Positions 16,553 to 42,307 of a stretch of 49,025 bases of DNA are shown here, one piece after another; within the stretch, counting starts at the first letter, position 1, and each line of letters opens with the position of its first letter. The position numbers and the translations under genes were made by a program. The stretch covers positions 133,598-182,622 of the forward strand of contig JABIEQ010000011.1 in assembly GCA_018651085.1 (NCBI GenBank), read 5' to 3'. Origin of the DNA: Candidatus Magasanikiibacteriota bacterium. GTDB taxonomy: Bacteria > Patescibacteriota > Patescibacteriia > Magasanikbacterales > UBA922. The notes under the pieces are model-generated. The model was not told the DNA's origin, made no database searches, and was given only the letters and a program-made list of their open reading frames with translations.

Positions 16553-16751
16553 ACGCAACAAAAGTCATATTTTTAAGATAAATCATAAATTCTAAGATAC
16601 CTTAAAAGTGATGTTATCGTCTAGGTGCGACATCAAGGTCGCACTCCACCAACATCCTCAAACCCAAACGAAGCAAACACACCCTCCCACTTCCTTATCA
16701 TCTTGACGGTGGTGTTCCATCTTGGGCACAAATGGCCTACCAATGTAAAGA

Positions 16752-16790
16752 GAAACGAAAAACCACCATATACTGGTGGTTTTTCGTTTC
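16752..16790. terminator. Intrinsic terminator hairpin downstream of the 16844-17047 gene
   Basis: GAAACGAAAAACCACCA-tatac-TGGTGGTTTTTCGTTTC inverted repeat. Confidence 0.75.
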
Positions 16791-16843
16791 TGCCCCCCGT
16801 TACCATCGAGAGGTGAAACGGGAGGTGGGGATCTCCTTAGAAG

Positions 16844-17047
16844 TCAGGACTTGGTCAGCTCCGACGGGTCGTACCAGCCGAGGCTGCCATCGTCGTGCTT
16901 GACCTGATAGCACAGGCCATGAGAGTCCGACTCATTGAACACCACTCCCGAGACACCCCAACGGCGATCCTCTGGCTTCCGCCAGCCCGTCACTGTGGGA
17001 TTCTCCTCGGTGGTGGTGACTTTGTCTCCGATCATGATCTGGCTCAT
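16844..17047 (-). CDS. Small SH3/KOW-like beta-barrel hypothetical protein (67 aa)
   Basis: IGDKV...GVSGVV...YQVKHDDGSLGWYDPSEL pattern; AAGGAG Shine-Dalgarno and own promoter; GC-rich codons. Confidence 0.7.
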   Translation of the reverse strand: MSQIMIGDKVTTTEENPTVTGWRKPEDRRWGVSGVVFNESDSHGLCYQVKHDDGSLGWYDPSELTKS

Positions 17048-17077
17048 GATGTCCGCTCCTTGGTTGATGGAAGAAAT

Positions 17078-17106
17078 ACTATATCAGCTAGATACTCCCC
17101 TGTCAA
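17078..17106 (-). promoter_or_regulatory. sigma70 promoter for the 67-aa gene
   Basis: TTGACA (17106-17101), 17-nt spacer, TATAGT (17083-17078). Confidence 0.75.
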
Positions 17107-17284
17107 TTTTAAAGACCCCGCATTTCTGCGAGGTCTTTGATGAAACAATCTATCCACTTTTTGTTTGTTCCGAGCACTATACTCCATAATTATATGAAGT
17201 GCATTGCAGGGTTGGCGTGTCGCATGAGCGAACGCCATTCCCACCTTATCACGCTTCTCCTGAGCGTGTCCCTTGTAGATTGTA

Positions 17285-17884
17285 TCAACCGCTAGGTTCT
17301 TCTTCCACGTCGCTGGAAGGCTCTTTGGGTGATGACGTCGCCCCCCTCATTCCTCGATGCCGCTTGATCGACTTGCAGGCTTTACTACGAGTCTGATCAA
17401 AAAGCGCCATTCTCACCCGATGCGGCTGATTCTTATCATCTATCTGGCCCTCCATGCTGACTCCATCTATGAGGAGTACTTCCGCTGTCAGGCTCTTGGC
17501 CTGACTTTCCATGATGAGGTGGCTCTCCAGACTGCCCTGAAGGAACTCCTTGAAGGCCTCCACGGAGTAGAACTCCCTGCAGTGCAGTCCAAGGAAGGTC
17601 TCGAGGCTGAAATGCCCCAAACATTCACAGACCGAAATCGATGGCTCGAGCTGTCCGTCTGGCAACTTCGAGTCGACGATACAGCCGTATAGCCAGAGAA
17701 AACGCTCATGCGTCATGTGACCCTTCTTCAGGATCTTCCAGATGCACAGAAGCGCTTCCGCCTTGCTCTCGAAGGACTTTTCCTCAGTAATCCTGAGGTG
17801 CTTTCCTCCTTCCTCCCAGTCGATCCATGTACAGTCGAGCTGCACCGGAGAATCCTCACTCTTCGTTCCCATGACTCCTATCAC
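17285..17884 (-). CDS. Hypothetical protein (about 199 aa), GC-rich
   Basis: Longest ORF of a visibly GC-rich patch; alternative start at 17872; no recognisable motif. Confidence 0.55.
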   Translation of the reverse strand: MIGVMGTKSEDSPVQLDCTWIDWEEGGKHLRITEEKSFESKAEALLCIWKILKKGHMTHERFLWLYGCIVDSKLPDGQLEPSISVCECLGHFSLETFLGLHCREFYSVEAFKEFLQGSLESHLIMESQAKSLTAEVLLIDGVSMEGQIDDKNQPHRVRMALFDQTRSKACKSIKRHRGMRGATSSPKEPSSDVEEEPSG

Positions 17885-18088
17885 ACTGGTTTCCGGTTAG
17901 TTTTTTGTTCGGCCCCCTTGCCGTAAACCAACCCGGGAAATTTCAGGGGGATAAAAATATGATGTTCATACTCTTATCCCCTTGAGTGTGAAAAGAAAGA
18001 AGGATGGTCTATATTAATATATATATACCATCTTTTGTCAACTATTTATGTCATTGTACTTATACGGTTTTAGCTTACCACCTTCGGT

Positions 18089-18125
18089 ATTACAAAAACG
18101 TCGTTTAAAACGACGTTTTTGTAAT
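18089..18125. terminator. Near-perfect palindrome, probable terminator
   Basis: ATTACAAAAACGTCGTTT-a-AAACGACGTTTTTGTAAT, 18-bp arms. Confidence 0.65.
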
Positions 18126-18357: not shown

Positions 18358-18459
18358 CCGATCTATATCAAACTATTTATTTTTATCAAATCTTCTTATT
18401 TTCTTAAAAAAGTTCCAAAGGATGCTATGTTAGACCGTATCTGGTATACTTTTCCTCAT

Positions 18460-20610
18460 ATGACTATATCTACAGCAAAAGAATCTTTGAAACAATATTT
18501 TGGATACGATACCTTCCGTCCCTTGCAAGAAGAGATTATTTCTCACGCAATGTCAGGAAAAGATGCACTGGTACTCATGCCCACAGGAGGTGGAAAATCT
18601 ATGTGCTATCAGATACCTGGAATTATTATGCCTGGTGTCACTATTGTGGTATCCCCTCTTATCGCTCTTATGCGCGATCAAGTAGAAGGACTTGTGGCAA
18701 ATGGTGTGTCAGCGGCATTTATTAATAGTAGTATTTCTCACGAAGAGCAAGCAGGTGTTGAACGCGATGTACAAGACGGGAAGATAAAACTCTTATATGT
18801 TTCCCCGGAGAAACTCATGTCTTCGTATTTCTTATCTTTTCTTTTTACCCTTGATGTTTCTTTATTTGCTATTGATGAAGCACATTGTATTTCTAGTTGG
18901 GGGCACAGTTTTAGACCAGAATATACGCGATTACGTATTCTTAAAGAAAAATTTCCAACAGTCCCTATCATTGCGCTTACGGCAACGGCTGATAAAATTA
19001 CGAGACGTGATATTTTAGGGCAACTTAATATTTTCAAAGCAAAAACATTTTTGTCTTCATTTGATCGACCAAATATTTCTTTGAAAGTATCTCCTGGACG
19101 AAAGAAATTTGATCGTATTTTACATTTTTTAAAAGATAGAAAAGATCAATCTGGTATTATTTATTGTTTAAGTAGAAAGTCTACTGAAAAAGTTGCAGAA
19201 AAACTTCAAAGCGCTGGATATAATGCCAAAGCATATCATGCAGGTCTTGATTCACATGAACGAACAAATAGACAAGATGATTTTATTTATGGTCGAACAA
19301 ACATCATGTGTGCGACCATTGCGTTTGGTATGGGTATCGATAAATCAAATGTTCGTTGGGTTATCCACTATAACCTTCCTAAAAGTTTAGAAGGATATTA
19401 CCAAGAGATTGGACGAGCTGGTCGAGATGGTCTTCCTAGTGATACGCTCCTTTTTTATAGTTTGTCTGACGTTATCATGCTTCGAAAGTTTGCTGAAGAC
19501 TCTGGTCAACGTGAAATTGAACTTGCAAAACTTACTCGCATGCAACAATATGCTGATGCATTAATTTGTCGACGTAAGATCTTGCTTAACTATTTTAGTG
19601 AACATCTTGAAGAACATTGTAATAATTGTGACGTATGCCATAACCCTCCAGAGCACATTAATGGAACAGAAATTGCTCAAAAAGCACTCTCTGCTGCTGC
19701 TCGGATGGATCAAAAAGTGGGTATCAACATGCTTATTGATGTACTTCGTGGATCTCAACGTCATGACATTGTCGCCCGAGGCTATGACACCATAAAAACG
19801 TATGGTGCAGGAAAAGAGCTGTCCGTTGACGAATGGCAACACTATTTATTACAAATGCTAAACCTTGGTCACATTTCTATTGCTTATGATCAGGGAAATG
19901 TTATTCACGTTACTCCCCTTGGGGTCTCTATCTTAAAAGGAAACAAACATGTTAATTTTGTTTCTCTTTTAACTGCTGAAAAGAAAGCTCAAGAACAAGA
20001 TGAACCTGTTAAAACACGGACGAAAAAACAACATAGAGAAGAACGTTTATTTCAAAAACTCCGAGAGCTCCGTAAATCTCTTGCCCAACAAAAACAAGTT
20101 CCTGCATACATTATTTTTAATGATGCAACACTTGAAGATATGGTTGAGCGTATGCCAACAAATAAAGACGAAATACGCCAAGTCTCAGGTGTTGGTGAGA
20201 AAAAATTCTCAAAGTACGGACAACTATTTATTAATGAAATCACTTCTTTTATCCATGAAGAACAACAAAGTGGTAAGGTCATTAAAGGTGGCACGCATAT
20301 GGTTACCTTCACCATGTATAAAAGTGGTATGACCGTGTATGGGATTGCCGAAGAAAGGAATCTTAAGATACAAACAGTGTATGCTCACCTCGCAACACTT
20401 ATTGAAAATGGCCACGAAATTGATTTACGAAAATTTCTTTCAAAGGATGACGAAAAGAAAATAAAAGCGGCTATCCTTGAAATAGGTGTCATTAAAAGTT
20501 TAAAAGGTTTGTTTGAAAAACTTAATGAAGATATCCCTTACGAAAAATTAAAACTTGTCTTGGCCTCTGATCACTATGAAAAACGGAAACGAGGTATCAT
20601 TCAAGTCTAG
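18460..20610 (+). CDS. recQ: ATP-dependent DNA helicase RecQ
   Basis: MPTGGGKS, IDEAHCISSWGHSFRP, YYQEIGRAGRDG, Zn-binding CRR...CNNCDVC, RQC, HRDC and C-terminal HTH; start likely MTIST at 18460. Confidence 0.97.
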   Translation: MTISTAKESLKQYFGYDTFRPLQEEIISHAMSGKDALVLMPTGGGKSMCYQIPGIIMPGVTIVVSPLIALMRDQVEGLVANGVSAAFINSSISHEEQAGVERDVQDGKIKLLYVSPEKLMSSYFLSFLFTLDVSLFAIDEAHCISSWGHSFRPEYTRLRILKEKFPTVPIIALTATADKITRRDILGQLNIFKAKTFLSSFDRPNISLKVSPGRKKFDRILHFLKDRKDQSGIIYCLSRKSTEKVAEKLQSAGYNAKAYHAGLDSHERTNRQDDFIYGRTNIMCATIAFGMGIDKSNVRWVIHYNLPKSLEGYYQEIGRAGRDGLPSDTLLFYSLSDVIMLRKFAEDSGQREIELAKLTRMQQYADALICRRKILLNYFSEHLEEHCNNCDVCHNPPEHINGTEIAQKALSAAARMDQKVGINMLIDVLRGSQRHDIVARGYDTIKTYGAGKELSVDEWQHYLLQMLNLGHISIAYDQGNVIHVTPLGVSILKGNKHVNFVSLLTAEKKAQEQDEPVKTRTKKQHREERLFQKLRELRKSLAQQKQVPAYIIFNDATLEDMVERMPTNKDEIRQVSGVGEKKFSKYGQLFINEITSFIHEEQQSGKVIKGGTHMVTFTMYKSGMTVYGIAEERNLKIQTVYAHLATLIENGHEIDLRKFLSKDDEKKIKAAILEIGVIKSLKGLFEKLNEDIPYEKLKLVLASDHYEKRKRGIIQV

Positions 20611-20658
20611 ACTTTTCCTGTTTTTCATGGTACATAGGTAAATATATAACCATTTTTT

Positions 20659-21822
20659 ATGAAAAAATTTCTTAAACCCATCTCATACCTTACAATTACT
20701 CTTGTTATTGTGGCATCAATCTTTTTATATGTGATGCGAGAAGATATACAAGAATTGTCTTACACGGGTGATATCCGCAGTCATTACCCTGTAGCTACCT
20801 TTGCTGGTGGATGTTTTTGGTGTTCTGAAAGTGATTTTGAAAAAACAACAGGAGTAATAGAGGCTGTTAGTGGATATGCTGGTGGTGATACAGAGGCCCC
20901 AACATATCAAGCTGTTGCAAGTGGAAGTACAAATTACAGAGAAGCTGTTCAAGTCTATTATAATCCTGATGTTGTTACTTTTGACCAACTTCTCGATGTA
21001 TATTGGCGCCATATTAATCCAACTGACGACAGTGGTCAATTTTCTGACCGAGGGTATCAATATACGACAGCTATCTATTATACAAATAATGAAGAACGAT
21101 CGATTATTCTTGATTCTAAACGCCTTCTTGAAACTACCTATGAGTTAGGTTCCCCCGTTGTGACAGAGATTCTTCCTCTTACAACATTTTACTCAGCAGA
21201 AGACTATCATCAAGACTACGCTAAAAATAATACGAATCATTATAATAGATACCGTACAGGATCAGGTCGTAACCAATACATTACAAATACTTGGGGAGAA
21301 GGATTAATACATGCGCAACACCTCGCACTTGATCCCCCCGCAGAACTTACACCACAAGAACCATCTTGTACGGGATATCGATGTTATGTCCCTCTTACCT
21401 TTCAAGAGATTACAGAAAAATTATCCCCTATTGCATATGACGTAACGCAAAAAGATGGGACAGAAAGACCATTTGATAATCCATATTGGGATAATAAAGA
21501 AGACGGTATTTATGTTGATATTGTTTCTGGGGAGCCACTATTTTCTTCAGTAGACAAGTACGTTTCTGGTACTGGATGGCCAAGTTTTGTTAAACCAATA
21601 ACTGAAGAATTTATTGATCTACAAGTGGATCATAAGCTAGGGTACCCTCGTGTCGAGGTTCGATCAAAACTTGCGAATTCTCACGTTGGTCATATCTTTC
21701 CTGATGGACCAGCGGAATATGGTGGGCAACGTTGGTGTATGAATTCTGCAGCGATGGAATTTATTCCAAAGGACCAACTAGAAGCGAAAGGCTATGGAGA
21801 GTATCTTTCTTCATTTAACTAG
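20659..21822 (+). CDS. msrAB: Exported/membrane-anchored peptide methionine sulfoxide reductase MsrA-MsrB fusion
   Basis: N-terminal TM; MsrA AGGCFWC and AEDYHQDY; MsrB GTGWPSF, HVGHIFPDGP, RWCMNSAA. Confidence 0.95.
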   Translation: MKKFLKPISYLTITLVIVASIFLYVMREDIQELSYTGDIRSHYPVATFAGGCFWCSESDFEKTTGVIEAVSGYAGGDTEAPTYQAVASGSTNYREAVQVYYNPDVVTFDQLLDVYWRHINPTDDSGQFSDRGYQYTTAIYYTNNEERSIILDSKRLLETTYELGSPVVTEILPLTTFYSAEDYHQDYAKNNTNHYNRYRTGSGRNQYITNTWGEGLIHAQHLALDPPAELTPQEPSCTGYRCYVPLTFQEITEKLSPIAYDVTQKDGTERPFDNPYWDNKEDGIYVDIVSGEPLFSSVDKYVSGTGWPSFVKPITEEFIDLQVDHKLGYPRVEVRSKLANSHVGHIFPDGPAEYGGQRWCMNSAAMEFIPKDQLEAKGYGEYLSSFN

Positions 21823-21835
21823 TTCCCCTTTCTTT

Positions 21836-21878
21836 TAAAGATAAAAAACAGCCATATTATGGCTGTTTTTTATCTTTA
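21836..21878 (+). terminator. Intrinsic terminator after msrAB
   Basis: Perfect 20-bp arms TAAAGATAAAAAACAGCCAT-att-ATGGCTGTTTTTTATCTTTA. Confidence 0.85.
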
Positions 21879-21920
21879 GGTAATATGCTACTATATGGAC
21901 ACGATATAGATATTGTATAT

Positions 21921-24899
21921 ATGAATACTGAAGACATTCAGGCACTCTTAAATGATAAGAAAAGATCCCTCCTTGAGGCATATTTAGAGCTTCACACGCA
22001 CTTTGAGACGGTTTATGGCCCAAACACCCTTCTTCTTATGGAAGTGGGTTCTTTTTTTGAGATATATGGGGTAGATAATGATAAAGAAACCATTGGAAAG
22101 CCTCGTGAGATCGCTGATATTCTTAATATCCAGCTCACAAGAAAAGATAAACGTGTCAAAGAAAATAATGCAAAAAATCCCCTTATGGCGGGATTTCCCA
22201 CAGCGACGTTTGATCGATATATTACAAGACTTATTCAGGAGAAGAAATATACGATTGTTATTATCCGCCAAAAAGGAACACCTCCTAATATAATTCGTTA
22301 TGTTGATAACATTTTATCACCTGGGGTAAATATTGATTATTGTATTGATCATCAAGATAACTTTATTGCATCAATTATTGTAGAAAAACATCATGATATT
22401 TATTCTATTGGATACGCAGCGATTGATGTGAGTACTGGAAAAACATATCTTTTTGAAACTCATAGTACAAAAGAAGATAAGACGGCTGCATTAGACGAGT
22501 TGTTTCGTTTACTTCAATCACACAATACAGCTGAATTAATTCTCTCTACAAATGGAGAATCTATTGATCAACAAAAAATCCTTGATTATCTTGAGTTTGG
22601 AGAATTTGAACAGGTTCATTTACGACATACCCGAGTACCAATCAGCTATCAAAATGAGTTGTTTAAAAAAGCCTATACGATTGAATCCTTTTTGTCTCCT
22701 GTCGAGTTTCTTGATATTGAAAAAAATCCACTTACATCAGAAGCACTTGCTCATTTAATTGAGTTTATCGTAGATCATGATGCTCGTATTATTGAACAAT
22801 TAAAAAAACCTATTATCCTTGATACATCTCGTTATTTGTATCTTGGAAATAATCCACTTGAGCAGCTCAACATTATCTCGTATGATCCACGTGAAGCGAC
22901 AGTACTTAGCCTTTTTGATAAAACAGTTACAAGCATTGGAAAACGTTTATTTAAAGATCGACTTGAAAACCCCATAACAAACAAGAATGACATCGAAGCA
23001 CAGTATAACCTTTCTGATTGGCTTATACCACTTTCTTCTGAAATTGACACACATCTTAAGAAAGTATATGATCTTGAACGATTATCACGGCGCATTGCGC
23101 TTACCCGTCTTCATCCGTTTGAAATAAATTTTTTGTATGATTCTCTTCTTGCAACGGCTCATATTATAGAAATCATTAAAGAAGAAGAAAATGCGGCTAT
23201 TGAAGAAACATTTCAGACAAAAGCTGGTACTCTTCAAGATTTCATTGCACACATTGAATCAATTTTTAACCTTGATCAAACAAATAAAGTTACAAGACAC
23301 ACCATCACTCGTTCTCTTTTTCAAACAGGGTTCCATCGTGACATTGATGCTCTTATTACTCGTAGAAAAGAACAAGAAGAAAAACTTGAGCAAATTAAAA
23401 CAACTATTGCGACACTTCTTGAAGACAAAAATGGAAAAGATCATACAGACTATATCGGTATTAAACAACTTGATAAAGAAGGGCATTATATCCATATGAC
23501 AAAAAGTCGGTATGCTCTTATTGAAGAAGAAATTAAAAAAAGTTTTGTTTCTCTTAATGGTACGGTATATGCCCTTTCTGATTTTACCTATAAAGTACAA
23601 ACAACGAATGTTAAAATTACGGCACCAATCATTGATCGGATTTCTGAAGAAATCACTCTTATTCAAACACGAATTACCGCTCTTACAAGAGAGCTTTTTG
23701 ATGAACAACTCCGCTACATTCAAACCACTTTTTCTCATCAATTAGATATATTTACTGACTCTCTTGCTAAGATTGATGTTGCTCTTAGTAATATAAAATC
23801 ATCCTTGCAACATCGCCTTGCCCGTCCTACTATTATTGATACAACAAAAGATTCTTCTTATCTATCTTTAGATGACCTTCGACATCCTCTTGTTGAGACA
23901 AAAGAAGAACAAGGCATTTATATTCCAAACTCTCTGGTCCTTGGTTCAAAAGAACACTATACTGATCAAGATAAACTGTCTGTGATTACCACTCAATCTT
24001 CTGAAAGTATCTCTGGACTACTCCTTTATGGGATTAATGCTAGTGGAAAATCATCTCTTATGAAGAGTCTTGGTATTTCTATTATCCTTGCTCAGAGTGG
24101 TCTTTATGTTCCTGCATCATCAATGACCTTTTCTATTTGTACAGAAATTTTTACTCGTATCGTTGCGAAAGATAATTTTGAAAAAGGTCTTTCTTCTTTT
24201 GCTGTTGAAATGGTTGAATTAAAAAACATCTTTAATCGCTGCACATCAAAAAGTCTTATATTAGGAGACGAAATAAGTCATGGGACAGAAACGCTCTCAG
24301 CTATTTCTATTGTTGCTGCTACAATTAAACGCCTTACTGAAACTGGTTCACTCTTTTTGTTTACGACGCATCTTCACCAACTACATTCTCTCGGTATGCT
24401 TAAAGACAACCCTCATGTAGCAAGTACACATATGAGTGTTCACTATGATACAGCAGCTGATCGGCTTATTTTTGATAGACTCCTTCAGTCTGGAAATGGG
24501 AATAGTGTTTATGGCCTTGAATTTGCTCACTCTCTTCATATGGATCCGGCCTTTTTGAAATATGCTATGGGTATTAGAAAATCACTTGCAAAAGAGTATA
24601 CTGATTTAGAATTGCTCACCAAACAACAAAAAAGTAAATACAACTCAAATCTTATTTTAACAACCTGTGCAATTTGTAAAAATAATGTTGAAGATGTTCA
24701 TCATATTGCTCCACAAAAATCAGCGGATGATCATGGAAACATTACTCATTTCCATAAAAACCACAAATATAATCTTCTCCCCATTTGTAAAAGTTGTCAT
24801 ACTAAGGTCCATGACAAGATTATTCATATTAAAGGGTTTATGATGACAGATAAAGGCTTAGAACTTACATACGAACAAACTGATTCATCTTCTTCGTAG
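21921..24899 (+). CDS. mutS: MutS7-type mismatch repair protein with C-terminal HNH endonuclease
   Basis: Domain I EVGSFFE (FxE), Walker A GINASGKS, SSFAVEM, LGDEISHGT, C-terminal CAIC...DVHHI...N...NLLPICKSCH..VH; start likely MNTED at 21921. Confidence 0.92.
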   Translation: MNTEDIQALLNDKKRSLLEAYLELHTHFETVYGPNTLLLMEVGSFFEIYGVDNDKETIGKPREIADILNIQLTRKDKRVKENNAKNPLMAGFPTATFDRYITRLIQEKKYTIVIIRQKGTPPNIIRYVDNILSPGVNIDYCIDHQDNFIASIIVEKHHDIYSIGYAAIDVSTGKTYLFETHSTKEDKTAALDELFRLLQSHNTAELILSTNGESIDQQKILDYLEFGEFEQVHLRHTRVPISYQNELFKKAYTIESFLSPVEFLDIEKNPLTSEALAHLIEFIVDHDARIIEQLKKPIILDTSRYLYLGNNPLEQLNIISYDPREATVLSLFDKTVTSIGKRLFKDRLENPITNKNDIEAQYNLSDWLIPLSSEIDTHLKKVYDLERLSRRIALTRLHPFEINFLYDSLLATAHIIEIIKEEENAAIEETFQTKAGTLQDFIAHIESIFNLDQTNKVTRHTITRSLFQTGFHRDIDALITRRKEQEEKLEQIKTTIATLLEDKNGKDHTDYIGIKQLDKEGHYIHMTKSRYALIEEEIKKSFVSLNGTVYALSDFTYKVQTTNVKITAPIIDRISEEITLIQTRITALTRELFDEQLRYIQTTFSHQLDIFTDSLAKIDVALSNIKSSLQHRLARPTIIDTTKDSSYLSLDDLRHPLVETKEEQGIYIPNSLVLGSKEHYTDQDKLSVITTQSSESISGLLLYGINASGKSSLMKSLGISIILAQSGLYVPASSMTFSICTEIFTRIVAKDNFEKGLSSFAVEMVELKNIFNRCTSKSLILGDEISHGTETLSAISIVAATIKRLTETGSLFLFTTHLHQLHSLGMLKDNPHVASTHMSVHYDTAADRLIFDRLLQSGNGNSVYGLEFAHSLHMDPAFLKYAMGIRKSLAKEYTDLELLTKQQKSKYNSNLILTTCAICKNNVEDVHHIAPQKSADDHGNITHFHKNHKYNLLPICKSCHTKVHDKIIHIKGFMMTDKGLELTYEQTDSSSS

Positions 24900-24903
24900 A
24901 TTG

Positions 24904-24932
24904 TTGCTTTTTCCCTTTTTTTCCGCTATGCT
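24904..24932 (+). promoter_or_regulatory. Putative sigma70 promoter for tsaD
   Basis: TTGCTT, 17-nt spacer, TATGCT; ATG 10 nt downstream. Confidence 0.55.
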
Positions 24933-24942
24933 AAGCCTAACT

Positions 24943-25950
24943 ATGAATATATTAGGTATTGAATCGTCTTGTGACGACACATCAGCTGCCCTGGTGTCCA
25001 TTACTGATGGACATTTTTCTGTTTTGTCTGAAAAGACGGCAAGCCAAATTGAAGTACACAAAAAATATGGTGGTGTGGTTCCTGAAATTGCAGGAAGAAA
25101 ACATGCTGAGCATATTTTTCCAGTTATTGAGGAAGTTCTTCAACATCAAATAAGACCTGACGCTATTGCGGTGACGACAGGGCCAGGACTTATTACCGGA
25201 CTTCTTGTAGGTGTTGAAGCTGCAAAATCTCTTTCATACCTTCTTGATATTCCTGTGGTGTCAACAAATCATATTGAAGGACACATTTATTCTACTCTTT
25301 TAAAAATGGATCAAAAAGAAATACTTTTTCCTGCGCTTTGTCTTATTGTTAGCGGTGGTCACACTGAACTGATTCTCATGAAAGCTCATGGGGTATATGA
25401 ACGTATTGGAGGTACCCGAGATGATGCAGCTGGGGAATGTTTTGATAAAATTGCAAAAATGCTTGATCGCCCTTACCCAGGTGGACCTGAAATCTCTCGT
25501 CTTGCTACAAATGGAAATCCATCAACAATTTCTTTTCCAAGACCAATGATCAATTCAGATAATTATGACTTTAGTTTTTCTGGACTAAAGACTGCAGCTC
25601 TTTATTGGTTACGAGATAATACTCTCCTTAATGATGCGGATACTTCTAATTTTTGTGCAAGTGTAGAGCAAGCAATTGTTGATGTTTTACTTGCAAAGAC
25701 AAAAAAAGCCATTGAGCATTTTTCTCCCCAATCTCTTATTCTTGCTGGAGGTGTTAGTGCAAACCAAAAACTTCGAGAAACCCTTCAACACAATATTACG
25801 GACATTCCTCTTTTTCTTCCTCCTAAAAAATATGCAATGGATAATGCAACAATGATTGCGGTTGCTGGGTATTTTCATGCCAAAGAAAAACATTTTACCA
25901 ATTGGAAAGATCTTGAAGCTAATCCAAATTGGAAACTATACTCTTCCTAA
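24943..25950 (+). CDS. tsaD: tRNA N6-adenosine threonylcarbamoyltransferase TsaD
   Basis: ILGIESSCDDT, NHIEGH, VSGGHT, DDAAGE, FSFSGLKT, DNATMI motifs. Confidence 0.97.
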   Translation: MNILGIESSCDDTSAALVSITDGHFSVLSEKTASQIEVHKKYGGVVPEIAGRKHAEHIFPVIEEVLQHQIRPDAIAVTTGPGLITGLLVGVEAAKSLSYLLDIPVVSTNHIEGHIYSTLLKMDQKEILFPALCLIVSGGHTELILMKAHGVYERIGGTRDDAAGECFDKIAKMLDRPYPGGPEISRLATNGNPSTISFPRPMINSDNYDFSFSGLKTAALYWLRDNTLLNDADTSNFCASVEQAIVDVLLAKTKKAIEHFSPQSLILAGGVSANQKLRETLQHNITDIPLFLPPKKYAMDNATMIAVAGYFHAKEKHFTNWKDLEANPNWKLYSS

Positions 25951-25952
25951 AT

Positions 25953-25979
25953 ATAAAATCCCCATAATGGGGATTTTAT
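25953..25979. terminator. Bidirectional terminator between tsaD and dnaE
   Basis: ATAAAATCCCC-ataat-GGGGATTTTAT, overlapping the dnaE stop. Confidence 0.75.
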
Positions 25980-28900
25980 TCTCCTATAAGTATTTTCCCT
26001 TTCCCGATGACTTCTTCTACTTTTTCTTGAAATGCTTCTGAGTTATCTACTCGAGCTTGTGTTTTTATCATGTTTGATCCAACACGGACGTACACTTCTA
26101 TATCCCCTACAAATTTCTCAAATACCTCTTTAAGGGGATTAGCAAACTCTTTTACTTCTTCTTGAGACAAAAGTAGTGTCACTACTTTCTTTTTTCTTTC
26201 TTTTTTCTTTTTCCTATCCTTTCCTCCTTGTGTTGCCTTCCCTAATTGAACTTGTCTTGCAATTTGTTCAGCATTTTCTTTTGTAAGCGTATACACATTC
26301 TCTACAAATACTTTATTATCTCCAGAGTCTCTTGGTGTTTTTCCGACCACACAAACCACTTTTCTTTCTTCCCAAACAAACTTTGTTTCTTCATATTTTT
26401 TAGGAAAAACAAGTAGTTCAACAGATCCTGATCTATCTTGAAGGGTTACAAACATCATGATAGATCCTTTTTTGGTAATCTTTTTTGTAAGTTTATCAAT
26501 AACTCCTCCAAGAACAATCCATTCATCTCGTGGATGATCTTCTGATTCAATAATTGGGGATACAGCTCCCTCGAGAGCTGTTTCAAATGGTGTAAGAGGA
26601 TGAGAAGATACATAAATACCCAGTAAATCCTTTTCCCAGTTCAATTTTTCTATCATCGTGGCGTCAGGTGAAGACTTCAACGTTACTTTTGAACCAATAT
26701 CAATAGCAGTACCACTAAATAGTGAGCCCTGATTTGTTATGGCATTTTCTTTTAAGTGTCTTAAGAAGTTTAAAATATTTTCTGTATTGTTTAGTAAAAC
26801 TCCTCTATCATATCCAAAAGCATCAAAGGCCCCTACTTTCACAAGACTCTCAACCGATTTTTTATTCATGTCTTTATGCTGTACTCTTTCTAGGATATTT
26901 TCTAAACTCGTGTACTTTCCATGTTCTTTTCTTTCTCTAAAAATCACCTCTGAAATATTTGCTCCCACATTTTTCACGGCATTTAACCCAAAACGGATAC
27001 GTCCGTCTTCTCCTTGTTTACTTACCATGGCAAAGTTTTTAAAACTTTCATTAACATCTGGAGGTAATACTTTAATACCCATACGATTGCACTCGTTTAC
27101 AATGGCAGATACTTTTTCTGAATCACCAAATTCTGATTTTAATACAGACGTCATAAACTGCACAGGGTAATGTGCTTTCATGAATGCTGTTTGATATGCC
27201 ACAATTCCGTAACTCGCTGCATGTGCTTTATTAAATCCGTAGGCAGCAAAGGGTTCAATAGCTCGCCAAAGTTCATTAATAATATCTTGGGGTACTTTTC
27301 CGATTTCTTTACACCCTTTGAAAAACTTTTCTTTTTGTTTTGCCATTTCTTCTGGAATCTTTTTTCCCATGGCTTTTCTAAATTTATCAGCTTCCATCCA
27401 GTTGTATCCAGCAAGCTTCATGGCAGTTAACATGACGTCGTCTTGGTATACCAATAGTCCATATGATGCACTAAGAATCTCTTCTAACCGAGGATCTAGA
27501 TACTTCACGGCTTCTGGATTATATTTTCTATGAATATACTCAGGAATGGCTTCCATAGGCCCTGGTCGATAGAGTGCCACCATAGCCATGATGTCTTCAA
27601 TACGATTGGGTTTAAGCTCTTTTAACCATCTCGTCATCCCTGATCCAGATAATTGGAATACCCCCATGGTTTCTCCTCTTGCAAGCATTTCAAAAACTAA
27701 AGCGTCATCAAGTGGAAGATTATAAATATCTACATCATCTCCTGTTGTTGCTTTTACAATTTCAACCGCGTTTCCTAAAATAGCAAGATTTCTAATACCT
27801 AAAAAATCATTTTTTAATACTCCTGCTGCCTCCACGGTTTTCATCTCAAATTGTGTCACGATCTTATCTCCCCCACTTTCTCGTTGAATTGGCGTAAAAT
27901 CTGTAAGTGGTGTTGGAGAGATCACAACTCCTGCAGCATGAATTGAGGTGTGCCTCGCGCATCCTTCTACGGTTTGAGCAAAATTAAGTAATTTTTTTAC
28001 ATCATCATTGGTCTCATATAATTTTCCCAGATCAGGTTCTTCATCAATTGCTCGTTTTACTGTCATTGGAAAACCCTGCGCTCCTTGAGGAATAAGTTTT
28101 GCAACTTGATCACAAAAACTATACGAAAACCCAAGGGCTCGCCCAACATCTCGGACACTTGCTCGTGCTGCCATTGTTCCAAAAGTAATAATCTGAGCAA
28201 CCCTATCTGCCCCATATTTCTTTGTAACATACTCAATCATTTCTTCACGTCTATCGTCAGCAAAATCCGTATCAATATCGGGAGGACTTGGTCGAAATGG
28301 ATTTAAGAATCGTTCAAACGGCAGTTTAAATCTGAGTGGATCAACGGTAGTAATACCAAGAACAAAAGAAACTAATGATCCAGCCGCAGATCCCCTGGTA
28401 GATTCTACGATTCCGTTTGCTTTTGCATATTCTACGTAGTCTGCAACACAGATAAAATATGGTGAATACCCCTTTGTTTTAATAATATCTAATTCGTAAT
28501 CAATACGTTCACTTACCTCACTTCCCATGTCTGGGTAAAATGAAGGCGCTAATCTATATGATTCATCTCGAAGGTGATCATCAGCGGTTTTTCCTTCAGG
28601 AAGATCAACAGGCGCAAAATGCCAGTTATTTAATTCAATTTCTATATTAATCCTGTCTGCAATTTTTCCTGTATTTTCTATGGCTTCTTTGACATGACGA
28701 AACCTTGAAGCAATATCATCCCCAGTATTAAGGGATCTATCTACATGACGATAATCTTCTCTATTGGTGTACCCCACTTTCCATCCTTTTCCAATACAAA
28801 GCAATATGTCTTGCGCTTCTGCGTGTTCTGGATCAAGGTAATGAACATCTCTTGTTACAACAAGCGGAATTCCTGTATCTTTTGATAATTCAATCAGTTT

Positions 28901-29470: not shown

Positions 29471-29618
29471 GTTTAGTGTTTATCTATCTAAGTACCTGAA
29501 GTGTATATGATGCTTGGTTTTGCTGCAACCTTACTATATCTTGACTTTTTTCTCTTTTTGTGGGTATTATGAGATTGGAAGTTGTTCCGTAGGACCCCTA
29601 AAAGAAGGAGAATGGGTC

Positions 29619-30002
29619 ATGAAGAAATTGTTAGGAGTTCTCGCTGTTTTATTTGCCGCCGCCCTCATCATTGGAAGCGCTGTGACAGCCGGCGTGGTGG
29701 CAGGTCAGGTCAAATGCTACTACCACGACGTGGTAGAGCAGAAGACCATCATTAAGGAAGGCCTCTCCCCGAAGATGTGCATCGCGAAGCACCTCTTCTA
29801 CGAAGAGAAGATCGGTGAGTTTCTCAACAAGAAGGACGCCGTCATCAAGGCCCAGAAGGACCTCATTGCTTCACAGCAAGAGATGATTGGTCTTCAAGAG
29901 GGCAAGAACGACTTTGCGAATCGTCTTCGGGATGAAAACCAAAGGCTCATCAAGGCTCAACAAGAGCTTCTTGACCAAAGGACCTTCGGAGATACACCGT
30001 AA
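29619..30002 (+). CDS. Hypothetical exported coiled-coil protein, GC-rich
   Basis: AAGGAG SD then MKKLLGVLAVLFAAALIIG signal/TM; heptad repeats; upstream TTGACT-18-TATTAT promoter at 29541-29570. Confidence 0.7.
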   Translation: MKKLLGVLAVLFAAALIIGSAVTAGVVAGQVKCYYHDVVEQKTIIKEGLSPKMCIAKHLFYEEKIGEFLNKKDAVIKAQKDLIASQQEMIGLQEGKNDFANRLRDENQRLIKAQQELLDQRTFGDTP

Positions 30003-40609: not shown

Positions 40610-41788
40610 TTATGATGTTTCCTCACTTTGACAAATAAGTGATAAATTTCTCTTTATTTCTTCAGCTAATAATGGAAGAAGCACAGGATCTTGTAATATA
40701 TCCCCATTAATTGTGTGCCCTTGTGCACTTAAAGAAGCAATTGCGGCAGAGTATGCAGCGGCATATTGTTCTTCTGTACAAGGTTCATCTTTAGATACAT
40801 CACTTGAAAAGGGTTCTTCTTCAAATACTGGTTTTGTACTTGTTGCGTTCCCTTCTTCATTATTCAATTCCCCTGGGATAAATATTTTTCCAGGACCAGT
40901 TGGACTATACCCTGAACGAACTTCTACGCCGTCTAAATAACTATCTCCATCAGTATCTTTATTTAGTGGATCAGTATTCCAAGAAAGAATTTCAGCTCCG
41001 TCACTTAATTCATCATTATCAGTATCCCAATTATTTGGATCTGTTCCTAATTCTCTTTCTTCTGTGTCTTCTAATCCATCTTCATCAGAATCTATCGGTT
41101 GCCCAAATAAAATGATATCATCAATTATTTGATTTTGAGCATCTACTGACCCTAACGGCTGATTACTTGTGTCATCTTGGTCTTCAACTTGCTGATCTCT
41201 ATTTGTAGTATCTTCAATATCTACTTGAAAGGTATCATCACTACTTTGTTGTTGTGTTGCCGGTGCACCATTTGAAGACACAAAGGTTCCGTATGCCCAC
41301 CATGCAGCTCCTACAATACCTGCTAATACAAATATGAGAATTACAATAACAATAATTGCTTTTCCAATCCCAGGCTTTTTAATTGTATAGCTTTCACCCG
41401 GATAATTTCCAGGTGGAGGTGGTGTTCCTATTCCTAAAGGAGAAAATGGTTGCGCATTTACGTCTTGAGCTGAAGACAATGCTTGTGGCGCTTGTTCTGT
41501 ATGATCTATCGCCGCAAAAACATCTTGCACAGGTGGGTTTTGTATTTTTATCTCTGTTTTTTCTTTTGCTTGAAGCTTCCCCGAAGAAATAGCTGATGAT
41601 ACTTCTGGTGGAGATTGAGGAACTTCTCTAACCGGTGGTGCTTGTACTTTTGCTTGTGGTTGGTTTTCTACCACCTCTTCAGCAGCATCCACGGGTTCTA
41701 TAGTATCCTTAAAAATATCTTCTGGTTCACCAATAGGAAGATTTGGAGGTGGAGTGCTTCCCCCTGCTTGTGCGTGATCATCAAACAT
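40610..41788 (-). CDS. Membrane-anchored protein with TSP3-like Ca-binding repeats and Pro-rich N-terminus
   Basis: TM IIVIVILIFVLAGIVGAAWW; DSDEDGLEDTEE, DTDNDELSDGAE, DTDGDSYLDGVE. Confidence 0.8.
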   Translation of the reverse strand: MFDDHAQAGGSTPPPNLPIGEPEDIFKDTIEPVDAAEEVVENQPQAKVQAPPVREVPQSPPEVSSAISSGKLQAKEKTEIKIQNPPVQDVFAAIDHTEQAPQALSSAQDVNAQPFSPLGIGTPPPPGNYPGESYTIKKPGIGKAIIVIVILIFVLAGIVGAAWWAYGTFVSSNGAPATQQQSSDDTFQVDIEDTTNRDQQVEDQDDTSNQPLGSVDAQNQIIDDIILFGQPIDSDEDGLEDTEERELGTDPNNWDTDNDELSDGAEILSWNTDPLNKDTDGDSYLDGVEVRSGYSPTGPGKIFIPGELNNEEGNATSTKPVFEEEPFSSDVSKDEPCTEEQYAAAYSAAIASLSAQGHTINGDILQDPVLLPLLAEEIKRNLSLICQSEETS

Positions 41789-41816
41789 ATATATTACCTA
41801 ACGTTACAAGTATTTT

Positions 41817-42266
41817 TTATTTACTTAATGGATCGAACCCTTTTCGCACTTCTCTTCCATCCCCAAAGCCATCACCATCAGTATCAGGGTTCAAAGGATC
41901 AGTTTTGGTTACAGACACTTCTTCTCCATCTTTTAGCCCATCTCCATCGGTATCAAATTCAAAATCACTCGTTCCAAGCTCGGCTTCTTGTGTTGCACTA
42001 AGGCCATCTCTATCCTTATCTTCTGGAAATGGATCAACAGTAAGTGTTGCAGAGGGATCCTGATTTTTATCACTAATGATGTTTTTTGTCTCTTCTTTAT
42101 CTTGAGAAACTACCAAGACAACACCCGTAACAATTAATGCAATGCATACAATAATTACTATAAGAATCCACCATCTCTTTTTTTGAGGAGGTTTTTGATA
42201 ATACGCTGCATGATTTACAGACTGTTGTCCTTCTTCTATAGGTGATTGTACTTGATTTATTTCCAT
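41817..42266 (-). CDS. Small membrane-anchored protein with TSP3-like Ca-binding repeats
   Basis: TM WWILIVIIVCIALIVTGVVLVV; DKDRDGL, DTDGDGLKDGEE, DTDGDGFGDGRE; start likely MEINQ at 42266. Confidence 0.8.
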   Translation of the reverse strand: MEINQVQSPIEEGQQSVNHAAYYQKPPQKKRWWILIVIIVCIALIVTGVVLVVSQDKEETKNIISDKNQDPSATLTVDPFPEDKDRDGLSATQEAELGTSDFEFDTDGDGLKDGEEVSVTKTDPLNPDTDGDGFGDGREVRKGFDPLSK

Positions 42267-42307
42267 ACCAATCTGTCTTTTAGTATAACACAATTTTTTC
42301 TTCTTTT

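What the first reader, a model, noticed from the sequence alone, without database searches (positions are those of the whole stretch)
21921..24899. MutS7 (MutS-HNH fusion) in a probable CPR bacterium
Seen: full MutS with mismatch-binding FxE, ATPase motifs and a C-terminal Zn-binding HNH domain (about 24666-24812); no mutL in the window. Known: MutS7 is described from Epsilonproteobacteria (Campylobacterota), giant viruses (Mimiviridae relatives) and octocoral mitochondria, and is proposed to be a self-contained recognise-and-nick enzyme. Inference: an additional host lineage, probably by horizontal transfer, relevant to the origin of the family and to repair in reduced genomes.
Basis: partly seen in the sequence, partly recalled or inferred. 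Interest (0 to 1): 0.8.

Follow-up and report, generated by a model that had tools for sequence, protein, structure and literature searches.

The report
MutS7 mismatch nuclease in CPR bacterium
This gene encodes an intact MutS7 protein, a DNA-mismatch sensor with its own built-in HNH cutting domain, in a tiny-genome (CPR/Patescibacteria) bacterium that has no other mismatch-repair genes; the protein family is known, but papers do not list this host group.

Summary
The ORF at 21921-24899 (+) encodes a 992-aa MutS with Pfam domains I, II, III and V. It keeps the Phe-x-Glu mismatch motif, Walker A/B and a C-terminal Zn-finger HNH at 24666-24812. It is a MutS7 member: 47-49% identical over its full length to Campylobacterota MutS7, and inside a 100/100 clade with giant-virus MutS7, apart from MutS1.

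The host is a 0.95-Mb, 99%-complete Patescibacteria genome whose best named relatives are Magasanikbacteria. It has no MutS1, MutL, NucS or Dam. Independent assemblies bridge both gene borders, and base composition matches the neighbours.

New here:
- Genuine CPR copies were found in one family only: 20 of 83 other genomes, 0 of 117 in the rest of the order, and none genuine in 397 other genomes of the phylum.
- The CPR copies form one 100/100 clade whose order relative to Campylobacterota is unresolved.
- MutS7 holders lack MutL, whereas 65 of 72 MutS1 holders have it.
- No neighbouring gene is conserved.

Function is inferred, not shown: MutL-independent, mismatch-directed cutting. My searches found no paper on CPR MutS7. 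The sequences are already public, and this scan noted the same thing on at least seven other genomes. Verdict: a new member of a known kind, of moderate interest.

The parts
21921..24899 (+). MutS7 coding sequence (992 aa, stop TAG 24897-24899); an alternative upstream ATG at 21885 would add 12 residues
   Evidence: Homologues align from the 21921 start. The full-length AlphaFold model has mean pLDDT 86.5 and matches E. coli MutS at Foldseek E 1.1e-47, TM 0.82-0.85 on the target.
22020..22331 (+). MutS domain I (mismatch binding), residues 34-137
   Evidence: Pfam PF01624, 39.7 bits against a cut-off of 20.6.
22053..22061 (+). Phe-x-Glu mismatch-recognition motif (F45 F46 E47)
   Evidence: F45 and E47 are invariant in 16 and in 40 family sequences. 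The role is inferred from E. coli MutS F36/E38, which I recall from established knowledge.
22359..22775 (+). MutS domain II (connector), residues 147-285
   Evidence: Pfam PF05188, 29.3 bits against a cut-off of 25.
22857..23789 (+). MutS domain III (core/levers) with the clamp region nested in it, residues 313-623
   Evidence: Pfam PF05192, E 7.4e-22. MutS_IV scores only 13.9 bits, below its cut-off. The model shows long lever helices 473-504 and 569-631 with a beta-rich insert at 513-567.
24021..24578 (+). MutS domain V (ABC-type ATPase and dimerisation helix-turn-helix), residues 701-886
   Evidence: Pfam PF00488, E 2.2e-40.
24030..24056 (+). Walker A / P-loop, G704-S712 (GINASGKSS)
   Evidence: G704, N706, G709, K710, S711 and S712 are invariant in A1. 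N706, G709 and K710 are invariant in A3.
24267..24272 (+). Walker B, D783-E784
   Evidence: Invariant in both alignments.
24633..24878 (+). Folded C-terminal HNH (beta-beta-alpha-metal) domain, residues about 905-986. The catalytic and zinc core is C916-H964 (24666-24812): CxxC, HH, N, CxxCH, H.
   Evidence: Core residues are invariant in 43 sequences. Pfam HNH, HNH_2 or DUF968 match 22, 30 and 33 of the 43. The domain model has pLDDT 84.3. The best structural matches are all HNH nucleases but modest: IscB Z 5.4, VcaM4I 4.8, TagI and McrA 4.2, Cap5 4.0. A PDB profile search gives the IscB HNH domain at E 0.0034.
21849..21871 (+). Hairpin CAGCCA-TATTA-TGGCTG followed by a T-run, between the msrAB stop (21822) and the MutS7 start. 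It is probably the msrAB terminator, so MutS7 would have its own transcription start.
   Evidence: Read directly from the sequence. The consensus scan did not list it, so this is an inference.

Best explanation
The gene encodes an intact MutS7-family protein. MutS7 is a complete MutS mismatch sensor (domains I-V) joined by a roughly 25-residue linker to a zinc-stabilised HNH nuclease.

Proposed mechanism, all of it inferred:
1. A homodimer forms through domain V and scans duplex DNA.
2. Phe45/Glu47 of one subunit engages a mismatch or a small insertion/deletion loop.
3. The ATP-driven switch of the ABC ATPase then licenses the tethered HNH domains to cut DNA near the lesion. No MutL or MutH is involved.
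4. I think it most likely that both strands are cut, one by each HNH domain of the dimer.
5. The break is then resected (RecJ, RecQ and UvrD-type helicases are present) and repaired by RecA from the sister chromosome. This route needs no strand-discrimination signal.

In this genome MutS7 is the only mismatch-repair gene. The surrounding order lacks MutS1 and MutL in every genome sampled. One family of it carries MutS7, probably after a single horizontal acquisition shared with, or exchanged with, Campylobacterota.

Odds: it is a MutS7 member, 0.97. It performs MutL-independent mismatch-directed incision, about 0.65. The full chain with a double-strand break and recombination, about 0.4.
For: Shown here:
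- Domain architecture and invariant catalytic residues.
- The whole-protein model superposes on mismatch-bound E. coli MutS (E 1.1e-47, TM 0.82-0.85 on the target, about 890 aligned columns).
- The C-terminal model's best structural matches are HNH nucleases.
- 47-49% full-length identity to Campylobacterota proteins, some named 'HNH endonuclease' or 'MutS-related protein'.
- In the tree, MutS7 is 100/100 apart from MutS1, and the 19 CPR rows form one 100/100 clade. FastTree on 200 rows agrees, with 33 CPR rows at 100.
- The own genome has one MutS_V match, no MutL, no NucS and no Dam-type methylase. It has RecA, RecJ and two UvrD-type helicases.
- In 401 genomes of the phylum, 65 of 72 MutS1 holders also have MutL. 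The 3 genuine MutS7 holders, and the 1 mis-binned case, have none.
- In 5 Campylobacterota MutS7 holders, MutL is over its cut-off in 0 of 5.
- The motifs are conserved across CPR sequences only 50-65% identical, which argues for purifying selection.

By analogy:
- Plant MSH1, a MutS fused to a GIY-YIG nuclease, makes mismatch-directed staggered double-strand breaks that need the mismatch motif and the ATPase (bioRxiv 10.64898/2026.06.11.731605; I read the abstract and passages).
Against: - No biochemistry exists for any MutS7 in the papers I could read. Bilewitch & Degnan 2011 (passages read) show only transcription in corals and slower mitochondrial evolution.
- Pfam HNH is below its cut-off for this copy.
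- Foldseek found no PDB match at E <= 0.001 for the HNH model, and the VIA Z-scores are at most 5.4.
- HNH domains have one active site and many act as nickases, so a nick is as natural a product as a break.
- Only 21 of 84 genomes of the family keep the gene, and 325 of 401 genomes of the phylum have no MutS at all. The function is therefore dispensable.
- Dimerisation and the position of the HNH domain relative to DNA were not modelled.
- I did not look for AddAB or RecBCD.
Confidence: 0.4

Rival explanations
1. The enzyme is the same but acts as a nickase, as originally proposed for MutS7. After mismatch recognition, one HNH domain nicks one strand. A UvrD-type helicase and RecJ excise that strand, and a polymerase and ligase fill the gap. 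In this reading the HNH replaces MutL and MutH.
For: Bilewitch & Degnan 2011 propose self-contained nicking (passages). HNH domains have a single active site, and the structural matches include a nicking HNH (Gme, Z 3.1) and the one-strand cutters of IscB and Cas9. The genome holds two UvrD-type helicases and RecJ.
Against: I found no source of strand discrimination: no Dam-type methylase, no MutL, and no clamp-binding motif that I could see by eye in the alignments (this was not tested further). The same gene works in viruses, mitochondria and two bacterial phyla, which fits a host-independent mechanism better. The one fused MutS-nuclease with biochemistry, plant MSH1, cuts both strands.
Confidence: 0.27
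2. The protein does not correct replication errors. It polices recombination or incoming DNA by cutting mismatched heteroduplexes that form when diverged DNA (taken-up, phage or mobile) pairs with the chromosome. That would make it an anti-recombination or defence-like role.
For: The distribution is patchy and accessory-like: 21 of 84 genomes in the family, and split within genera (g331 3 of 6, g321 1 of 2, g342 2 of 3). There is no conserved gene context. Giant viruses carry the family in large numbers (379 of 489 candidate stretches). MutS proteins in general reject homeologous recombination, which is established knowledge.
Against: No defence-system model matches beyond the P-loop (PADLOC). 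Neighbours in 22 CPR loci are housekeeping genes such as phosphoglucomutase, ClpB, GyrB, NusG, L11, TsaD and DnaE, not defence islands or mobile genes. The mutual exclusion with MutS1/MutL fits replacement of mismatch repair.
Confidence: 0.12
3. The HNH domain is not catalytic, being only a structural zinc module. The protein would act only as a mismatch sensor or clamp that recruits an unidentified nuclease.
For: Pfam HNH is below its cut-off for this copy, and the structural scores are modest.
Against: The full catalytic set HH...N...H and all four zinc ligands are invariant in 43 sequences spanning three host groups. The one variable ligand, C959, is replaced by His, which also binds zinc, in the Campylobacterota rows of A1. 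No partner gene is conserved next to it.
Confidence: 0.05
4. The gene is an artefact: a Campylobacterota or viral gene that was mis-assembled or mis-binned into a CPR genome.
For: This does happen. In the phylum sample, G044's 'MutS7' lies on a 3.4-kb contig and is 95% identical to a Sulfuricurvum copy.
Against: - Contigs from three runs not marked as the source bridge the msrAB|mutS7 border: X6 20981-22197, X7 21566-22292, X8 21730-22273. Contigs from two of them bridge the mutS7|tsaD border: X6 24244-28044, X8 24705-25007. All show 0 differences.
- The window lies 133-183 kb into a contig of housekeeping genes.
- Gene GC is 0.343 and GC3 0.22, against 0.374 +/- 0.041 and 0.26 +/- 0.10 for 34 ORFs of the window.
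- 20 other genomes of the family hold orthologues that form their own clade, one of them in a single-contig 1.2-Mb genome.
Confidence: 0.01

Closest known systems
MutS7 of Campylobacterota (Epsilonproteobacteria), e.g. Hydrogenimonas, Sulfurospirillum, Sulfurimonas, Sulfuricurvum and Thiovulum copies (P0097-P0121, L141-L201)
   Same: Same length (about 980-1010 aa) and same order of domains I-II-III-V-HNH. They are 45-49% identical over the full length. The FxE, Walker A/B and HH-N-H residues are the same. The holders lack MutL (0 of 5 over its cut-off). Together with the CPR copies and one unnamed representative they form a 100/100 clade.
   Different: The host phylum differs. The CPR copies form a separate 100/100 clade on a 0.25 branch. 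The second zinc knuckle is CxxCH in the CPR rows and CxxHH in the Campylobacterota rows of the 16-sequence alignment. The Campylobacterota holders checked also carry a MutS2-like gene of about 735 aa, whereas this genome has MutS7 alone. Prevalence is 46 of 201 sampled Campylobacterota, against one family only in Patescibacteria.
MutS7 of giant viruses (Nucleocytoviricota) and octocoral mitochondrial mtMutS
   Same: Same domain order with the C-terminal HNH and the HHNH residues. They sit in the same 100/100 MutS7 clade apart from MutS1.
   Different: Identity is only 27-37%. Many viral copies have C-terminal extensions after the HNH. Octocoral sequences were not in my trees. Papers describe MutS7 as lacking domains II and IV. 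Here Pfam detects domain II, and the model superposes on the whole of E. coli MutS, so I read that 'absence' as a limit of detection.
Plant organellar MSH1 (MutS fused to a GIY-YIG nuclease)
   Same: It is a full MutS sensor with a nuclease tethered at the C-terminus, described as a minimal one-protein mismatch-repair system. It is also found in giant viruses.
   Different: The nuclease fold is unrelated (GIY-YIG, not HNH), and it belongs to a different MutS lineage. Its mismatch-directed staggered double-strand cleavage has been shown biochemically in a 2026 preprint; nothing comparable exists for MutS7.
Canonical bacterial MutS1 with MutL (and MutH)
   Same: Five-domain MutS fold, FxE motif and ABC ATPase. 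Foldseek gives E 1e-47 to E. coli and Taq MutS.
   Different: Identity is only 19-21% in the structural alignment. The NCBIfam MutS1 models score below their cut-offs: 360.8 against 480, and 269.9 against 641.7. It is a separate clade. It carries its own nuclease and has no MutL partner in the genome.
MutS2 (MutS-Smr) and EndoMS/NucS
   Same: MutS2 is another MutS with a C-terminal nuclease. NucS is another MutL-free mismatch nuclease that cuts both strands (recalled from established knowledge).
   Different: MutS2 lacks domain I and carries Smr, and here TIGR01069 scores 109.8 against a cut-off of 400. NucS is an unrelated fold and was not found in this genome.

Membership tests
MutS7 (HNH-bearing MutS subfamily; definition as read in passages of Bilewitch & Degnan 2011) | MutS domain I with the mismatch-binding Phe (Phe-x-Glu) | tested here: met
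   PF01624 is over its cut-off. F45 and E47 are invariant in the 16-sequence and 40-sequence alignments.
MutS7 | MutS domains III and V with intact ATPase motifs | tested here: met
   PF05192 at E 7.4e-22 and PF00488 at E 2.2e-40. Walker A, Walker B and H817 are conserved.
MutS7 | C-terminal HNH endonuclease domain with the H-H-N-H residues | tested here: met
   H927, H928, N951, H960 and H964 plus the Cys ligands are invariant in 43 sequences. Pfam HNH families match 22-33 of the 43 members, though the window's own copy is below the PF01844 cut-off. The structural matches are HNH nucleases at modest Z, at most 5.4.
MutS7 | Falls in the clade of epsilonproteobacterial and giant-virus HNH-MutS, apart from MutS1 | tested here: met
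   IQ-TREE with LG+G4 on 70 rows gives MutS7 100/100, and CPR + Campylobacterota + P0123 100/100. FastTree on 200 rows agrees. Limits: octocoral mtMutS and MutS2-6/8 references were not included, and the site-mixture model did not finish.
MutS7 | Mismatch-dependent nuclease activity without MutL | not testable with these tools
   Only indirect support. The own genome has no MutL, nor do the other MutS7 holders checked. I found no biochemistry in print.
MutS1 (canonical mismatch-repair MutS) | Scores over the curated NCBIfam equivalog cut-offs | tested here: not met
   NF003810 scores 360.8 against 480. TIGR01070 scores 269.9 against 641.7.
MutS1 | A MutL partner encoded in the genome | tested here: not met
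   No match for TIGR00585 or PF08676 in a genome that is 99.27% complete. In the phylum sample, 65 of 72 MutS1 holders have MutL.
MutS2 | Lacks domain I and has a C-terminal Smr domain | tested here: not met
   Domain I is present. TIGR01069 scores 109.8 against 400. The only Smr match in the genome is a separate 87-aa frame on another contig.

The most novel reading that the evidence does not exclude
A single horizontally acquired gene restored mismatch correction in a CPR family whose ancestors had lost MutS1 and MutL. It would do so without strand discrimination: the MutS7 dimer cuts both strands at a mismatch, and RecA copies the sister chromosome. If so, Magasanikbacteria-type MutS7 would be the smallest known bacterial mismatch-repair system. 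Genomes of one family with and without the gene would then be a natural experiment on what mismatch repair does to mutation rate and base composition in reduced genomes.
Probability: 0.35. Interest if true: 0.65.

Novelty: new member of a known kind. Interest (0 to 1): 0.4.

Why it matters
MutS7 is cited as a curiosity of octocoral mitochondria, giant viruses and Epsilonproteobacteria, and its origin and direction of transfer are unsettled.

A second bacterial phylum adds a new point to that question. The gene is confined to one family and forms one old clade next to Campylobacterota. This shows the gene can settle as a resident chromosomal gene in a genome of under 1 Mb.

Most sampled Patescibacteria have no MutS at all (325 of 401). 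A family in which about a quarter of genomes carry a one-gene candidate repair system is therefore a usable comparison set for studying fidelity in reduced genomes.

The protein is also a compact candidate for the first biochemical test of the 'self-contained mismatch repair' idea.

The gain is incremental. The family, its architecture and the hypothesis are all known, and the sequences are already public.

Tried and rejected
- Viral contigs with the single protein: 24 pattern matches but no relative. The alignment query was needed instead.
- Site-mixture (C20 PMSF) tree of 70 rows: it did not finish in two 300-s runs. I fell back to LG+G4, which joins long branches more readily.
- Test of Campylobacterota monophyly: no AU test was run, because the best tree already has them as one group. 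Support is only 46 SH-aLRT and 78 bootstrap, so the donor and the order of branching stay open.
- Naming the unnamed MutS7-like clades between the bacterial and viral groups (P0125-P0135, P0133, P0139):
  - The cluster look-up gave no organism names.
  - A homologue search with P0128 showed unnamed relatives on contigs up to 431 kb, then Sulfurimonas at 38-40%.
  - The metagenome scan returned only 27-40% relatives (20 of 115 stretches), so it gave no context.
- Conserved neighbours: RecQ, MsrAB, TsaD and DnaE flank MutS7 in none of 21 other CPR loci. The commonest shared neighbours, phosphoglucomutase (8 of 22 loci) and ClpB (6 of 22), are housekeeping genes.
- Foldseek on the HNH model against the PDB: no match at E <= 0.001.
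- PADLOC: only P-loop noise.
- Clamp-binding motif: none seen by eye in alignment A1. I ran no complex prediction, because the prior was low and blind false passes are frequent.
- Ogata et al. 2011, the paper that defined MutS7, is not held. What I say about it comes from papers that cite it.
- Rfam at a relaxed threshold on the GC-rich island at 16.6-18.0 kb: nothing credible.
Full report
**What is there**

A single open frame runs from 21885 to 24899 on the + strand. Most homologues begin at that position. The upstream ATG at 21885 cannot be excluded.

A hairpin followed by a T-run at 21849-21871, just after the msrAB stop, looks like a terminator. If so, the gene probably has its own transcription start (this is an inference, and the consensus scan did not list it).

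Pfam finds MutS domains I, II, III and V over their cut-offs and domain IV below its cut-off. The NCBIfam MutS1 and MutS2 equivalog models score well below their cut-offs.

Several residues are invariant or nearly so in a 16-sequence and a 40-sequence family alignment:
- the mismatch motif F45-x-E47
- the Walker A (G704..K710 S711 S712)
- the Walker B (D783 E784)
- H817

**The HNH domain**

In 43 C-terminal domains from CPR, Campylobacterota and giant viruses, C916, C919, H927, H928, N951, C956, H960 and H964 are invariant. The fourth zinc ligand is Cys in the CPR rows and His in the Campylobacterota rows of the 16-sequence alignment.

Scanned alone, the window's domain gives PF01844 at E 0.0018, which is below the cut-off. 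Across the 43 members, 22 match HNH, 30 match HNH_2 and 33 match DUF968.

A profile search of PDB sequences gives weak matches to the HNH domains of IscB (E 0.0034), Cap5 and the group II intron protein LtrA. This fits a published classification that puts the mitochondrial MutS HNH in the same group as LtrA (PMC5714182, passages read).

The AlphaFold model of residues 880-992 has mean pLDDT 84.3. Foldseek finds nothing at E <= 0.001, and its top rows are McrA, IscB and Cap5. The Foldseek-independent search ranks HNH nucleases first: IscB Z 5.4, VcaM4I 4.8, TagI and EcoKMcrA 4.2, Cap5 4.0, GVE2 HNH 3.6. These Z values are modest and would mean little alone. Together with the motif and profile results, the HNH assignment is safe.

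**The MutS body**

The full-length model (pLDDT 86.5, pTM 0.78) superposes on mismatch-bound E. coli MutS over about 890 alignment columns. Foldseek gives E 1.1e-47 and TM 0.82-0.85 normalised to the target.

Papers describe MutS7 as lacking domains II and IV. Here domain II is detected and the whole five-domain shape is predicted. I read the reported absence as a limit of domain detection.

**Host and integrity of the locus**

- The window is bases 133,598-182,622 of a contig in a 946,857-base, 17-contig genome rated 99.27% complete.
- Its genes are core housekeeping: RecQ, MsrAB, TsaD, DnaE, FtsZ/FtsA, MreB, L10/L12, RRF and others.
- Among the 120 best homologues listed, the 12 between 49% and 65% identity that carry a taxon name are 8 Magasanikbacteria, 2 Patescibacteria group, 1 Kerfeldbacteria and 1 Nomurabacteria. 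From 49% identity downward the names are Hydrogenimonas.
- Gene GC is 0.343 and GC3 is 0.22. The means for 34 ORFs of the window are 0.374 +/- 0.041 and 0.26 +/- 0.10.
- Eleven marine-metagenome runs hold all or part of the stretch.
- Contigs of three runs not marked as the possible source bridge the msrAB|mutS7 border: X6 20981-22197, X7 21566-22292, X8 21730-22273. Contigs of two of them bridge the mutS7|tsaD border: X6 24244-28044, X8 24705-25007. None shows a difference.

The gene is not a chimeric join.

**Family membership**

- Giant-virus contigs hold many relatives: 379 of 489 candidate stretches, at 27-37% identity.
The best 80 are CPR and Campylobacterota: Sulfurospirillum, Sulfuricurvum, Sulfurimonas, Thiovulum, Hydrogenimonas and Nitratifractor.
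- In the 1.84-billion-protein representative library there are 2,857 matches at E <= 1e-30. At 50% clustering, the CPR and Campylobacterota proteins collapse into a few representatives.

The FastTree tree has 200 rows. I used every locus with an ORF of at least 700 aa carrying the P-loop pattern. I limited the viral rows to 900-1100 aa, which kept 74 of 80 loci. Of the genome-contig loci, 74 of 80 qualified. The IQ-TREE LG+G4 tree has 70 rows that I chose from these.

Both trees, rooted on 25 and 7 MutS1 rows respectively (CPR MutS1 plus E. coli), give the same picture:
- MutS7 is 100/100 apart from MutS1.
- All CPR rows form one clade: 33 rows at 100 in FastTree, 19 rows at 100/100 in IQ-TREE.
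- CPR + Campylobacterota + one unnamed representative is 100/100.
- Unnamed representatives and then giant viruses lie outside that clade.
- Campylobacterota monophyly (78/46) and a sister relation between CPR and Campylobacterota (67/34) are not supported. The donor cannot be named.

Limits: the site-mixture model did not finish. Octocoral and MutS2-8 references were not included.

**Distribution**

| Sample | Result |
|---|---|
| 401 genomes across the phylum | 76 have a MutS match. 72 are MutS1-like (about 860-900 aa, 25-35% identity). 4 score as MutS7: G000, two genomes of the same family, and G044. |
| 201 genomes of the order | 21 hold MutS7 including G000, all in family f1 (20 of 83 others). 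0 of 117 in the nine other families. No MutS1 anywhere in the order sample. |
| 201 sampled Campylobacterota | 46 hold MutS7. |

G044's copy is a fragment on a 3.4-kb contig and is 95% identical to a Sulfuricurvum gene, so it is mis-binned.

Within f1 the gene is patchy inside genera: g331 3 of 6, g321 1 of 2, g342 2 of 3.

Records labelled Uhrbacteria, Kerfeldbacteria, Nomurabacteria or 'uncultured Gammaproteobacteria' nest inside the f1 diversity. Some are identical to f1 genomes. I take these labels as loose.

**Relation to other repair genes**

- MutL was found in 66 of the 401 genomes.
- 65 of the 72 MutS1 holders have MutL. One genome has MutL only.
- None of the MutS7 holders has MutL.
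- In five Campylobacterota holders, MutL is over its cut-off in 0 of 5. Besides MutS7, each has a MutS2-like gene of about 735 aa.
- The own genome has no NucS and no Dam-type methylase.
- The own genome has a lone 87-aa Smr frame, RecA, RecJ and two UvrD-type helicases.

**Gene context**

There is no conserved gene context. None of the window's neighbours flanks MutS7 in 21 other CPR loci. The commonest shared neighbours are phosphoglucomutase (8 of 22 loci) and ClpB (6 of 22). Others are GyrB, NusG, L11, LemA and an M48 peptidase. PADLOC gives nothing beyond the P-loop.

**How it most likely works**

Shown here: an intact sensor, ATPase and HNH under purifying selection, standing alone in genomes without MutL.

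Inferred: a dimer recognises a mismatch, and the ATP switch licenses the tethered HNH domains to cut.

The classical proposal is a strand nick that replaces MutL and MutH. I give slightly better odds to cleavage of both strands followed by RecA-mediated copying of the sister chromosome, for three reasons:
- I found no strand-discrimination signal.
- The gene works in viruses, mitochondria and two bacterial phyla, which favours a host-independent route.
- The only fused MutS-nuclease with biochemistry, plant MSH1, makes mismatch-directed staggered double-strand breaks that need the mismatch motif and the ATPase (preprint 10.64898/2026.06.11.731605; abstract and passages read).

An anti-recombination or defence role and a non-catalytic HNH are less likely rivals. 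An artefact is excluded.

**Novelty**

The papers I read name only octocorals, nucleocytoviruses and Epsilonproteobacteria as MutS7 hosts. These are a 2024 preprint on plant MutS genes, a 2021 paper on animal MutS and the 2011 octocoral paper, read as passages.

| Search terms | Result |
|---|---|
| 'MutS7' | 28 papers, 23 listed, none on CPR by title or abstract |
| MutS + HNH + Patescibacteria | 2 papers, 1 listed, unrelated |
| MutS + mismatch repair + candidate phyla radiation | 6 papers, none on this by title or abstract |
| MutS + mismatch repair + Patescibacteria | 8 papers, none on this by title or abstract |
| Magasanikbacteria + MutS | 0 papers |

Subscription journals and supplementary files were not searchable. 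The sequences are already public under generic names.

This scan's earlier notes report the same conclusion on at least seven other genomes. Those are unchecked AI notes and not independent evidence.

**Verdict**

This is a new member (host lineage) of a known family, with useful new detail on its narrow distribution and its exclusivity with MutS1/MutL. Interest is moderate.

Noticed in passing
window 16600-18125: A GC-rich island (0.48-0.60 GC in 200-base bins, against about 0.36 around it) is bracketed by two perfect 18-nt hairpins, at 16751-16791 and 18089-18125. The 199-aa ORF inside it (17285-17884, - strand) has GC 0.537 and GC3 0.66 and no Pfam match. No credible Rfam match was found.
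   Followed up: partly
window 29514-30002 (+): A 162-aa ORF between dnaE and the pyruvate phosphate dikinase gene has foreign-looking composition (GC 0.479, GC3 0.58) and no Pfam match.
   Followed up: no
L005 (G044:C23:1-3393): A CPR genome of another family carries a 3.4-kb contig whose MutS7 fragment is 95% identical to a Sulfuricurvum gene (L200). This is almost certainly a mis-binned Campylobacterota contig, so it should not be counted as a second CPR lineage with MutS7.
   Followed up: yes
L122, L133, L140, L151: Four records titled 'uncultured Gammaproteobacteria bacterium' carry CPR-type MutS7. L140 is identical to the copy of a genome in the window's own family (L037). L151 and L133 nest among family members. 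The organism labels look wrong.
   Followed up: partly
P0125-P0135, P0133, P0139 and relatives of P0128 (P0277-P0300): Several unnamed clades of full-length HNH-MutS proteins sit between the bacterial (CPR + Campylobacterota) clade and the giant-virus clades. Some lie on contigs of 150-431 kb. I could not determine their hosts.
   Followed up: partly
G593:C5:142355-142921: One Sulfuricurvum genome has, besides its MutS7 and a MutS2-like gene, a second MutS_V match that scores as high as MutS7 (139.8 bits) in a 682-aa frame. It may be a truncated or second MutS7-like paralogue.
   Followed up: no
window 42308-49024 (-), with 40610-42293: A very large ORF (at least 2033 aa, and open to the window's end in the longer reading) has one DUF4215 match. 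Just downstream of it on the - strand are two genes with bacterial TSP3 repeats. This is probably a giant surface protein cluster.
   Followed up: no
window 18427-21822: Directly upstream of MutS7 lie a RecQ helicase with an extra C-terminal HTH_40 domain and a fused MsrA-MsrB. This adjacency is not conserved in the other CPR loci checked.
   Followed up: yes
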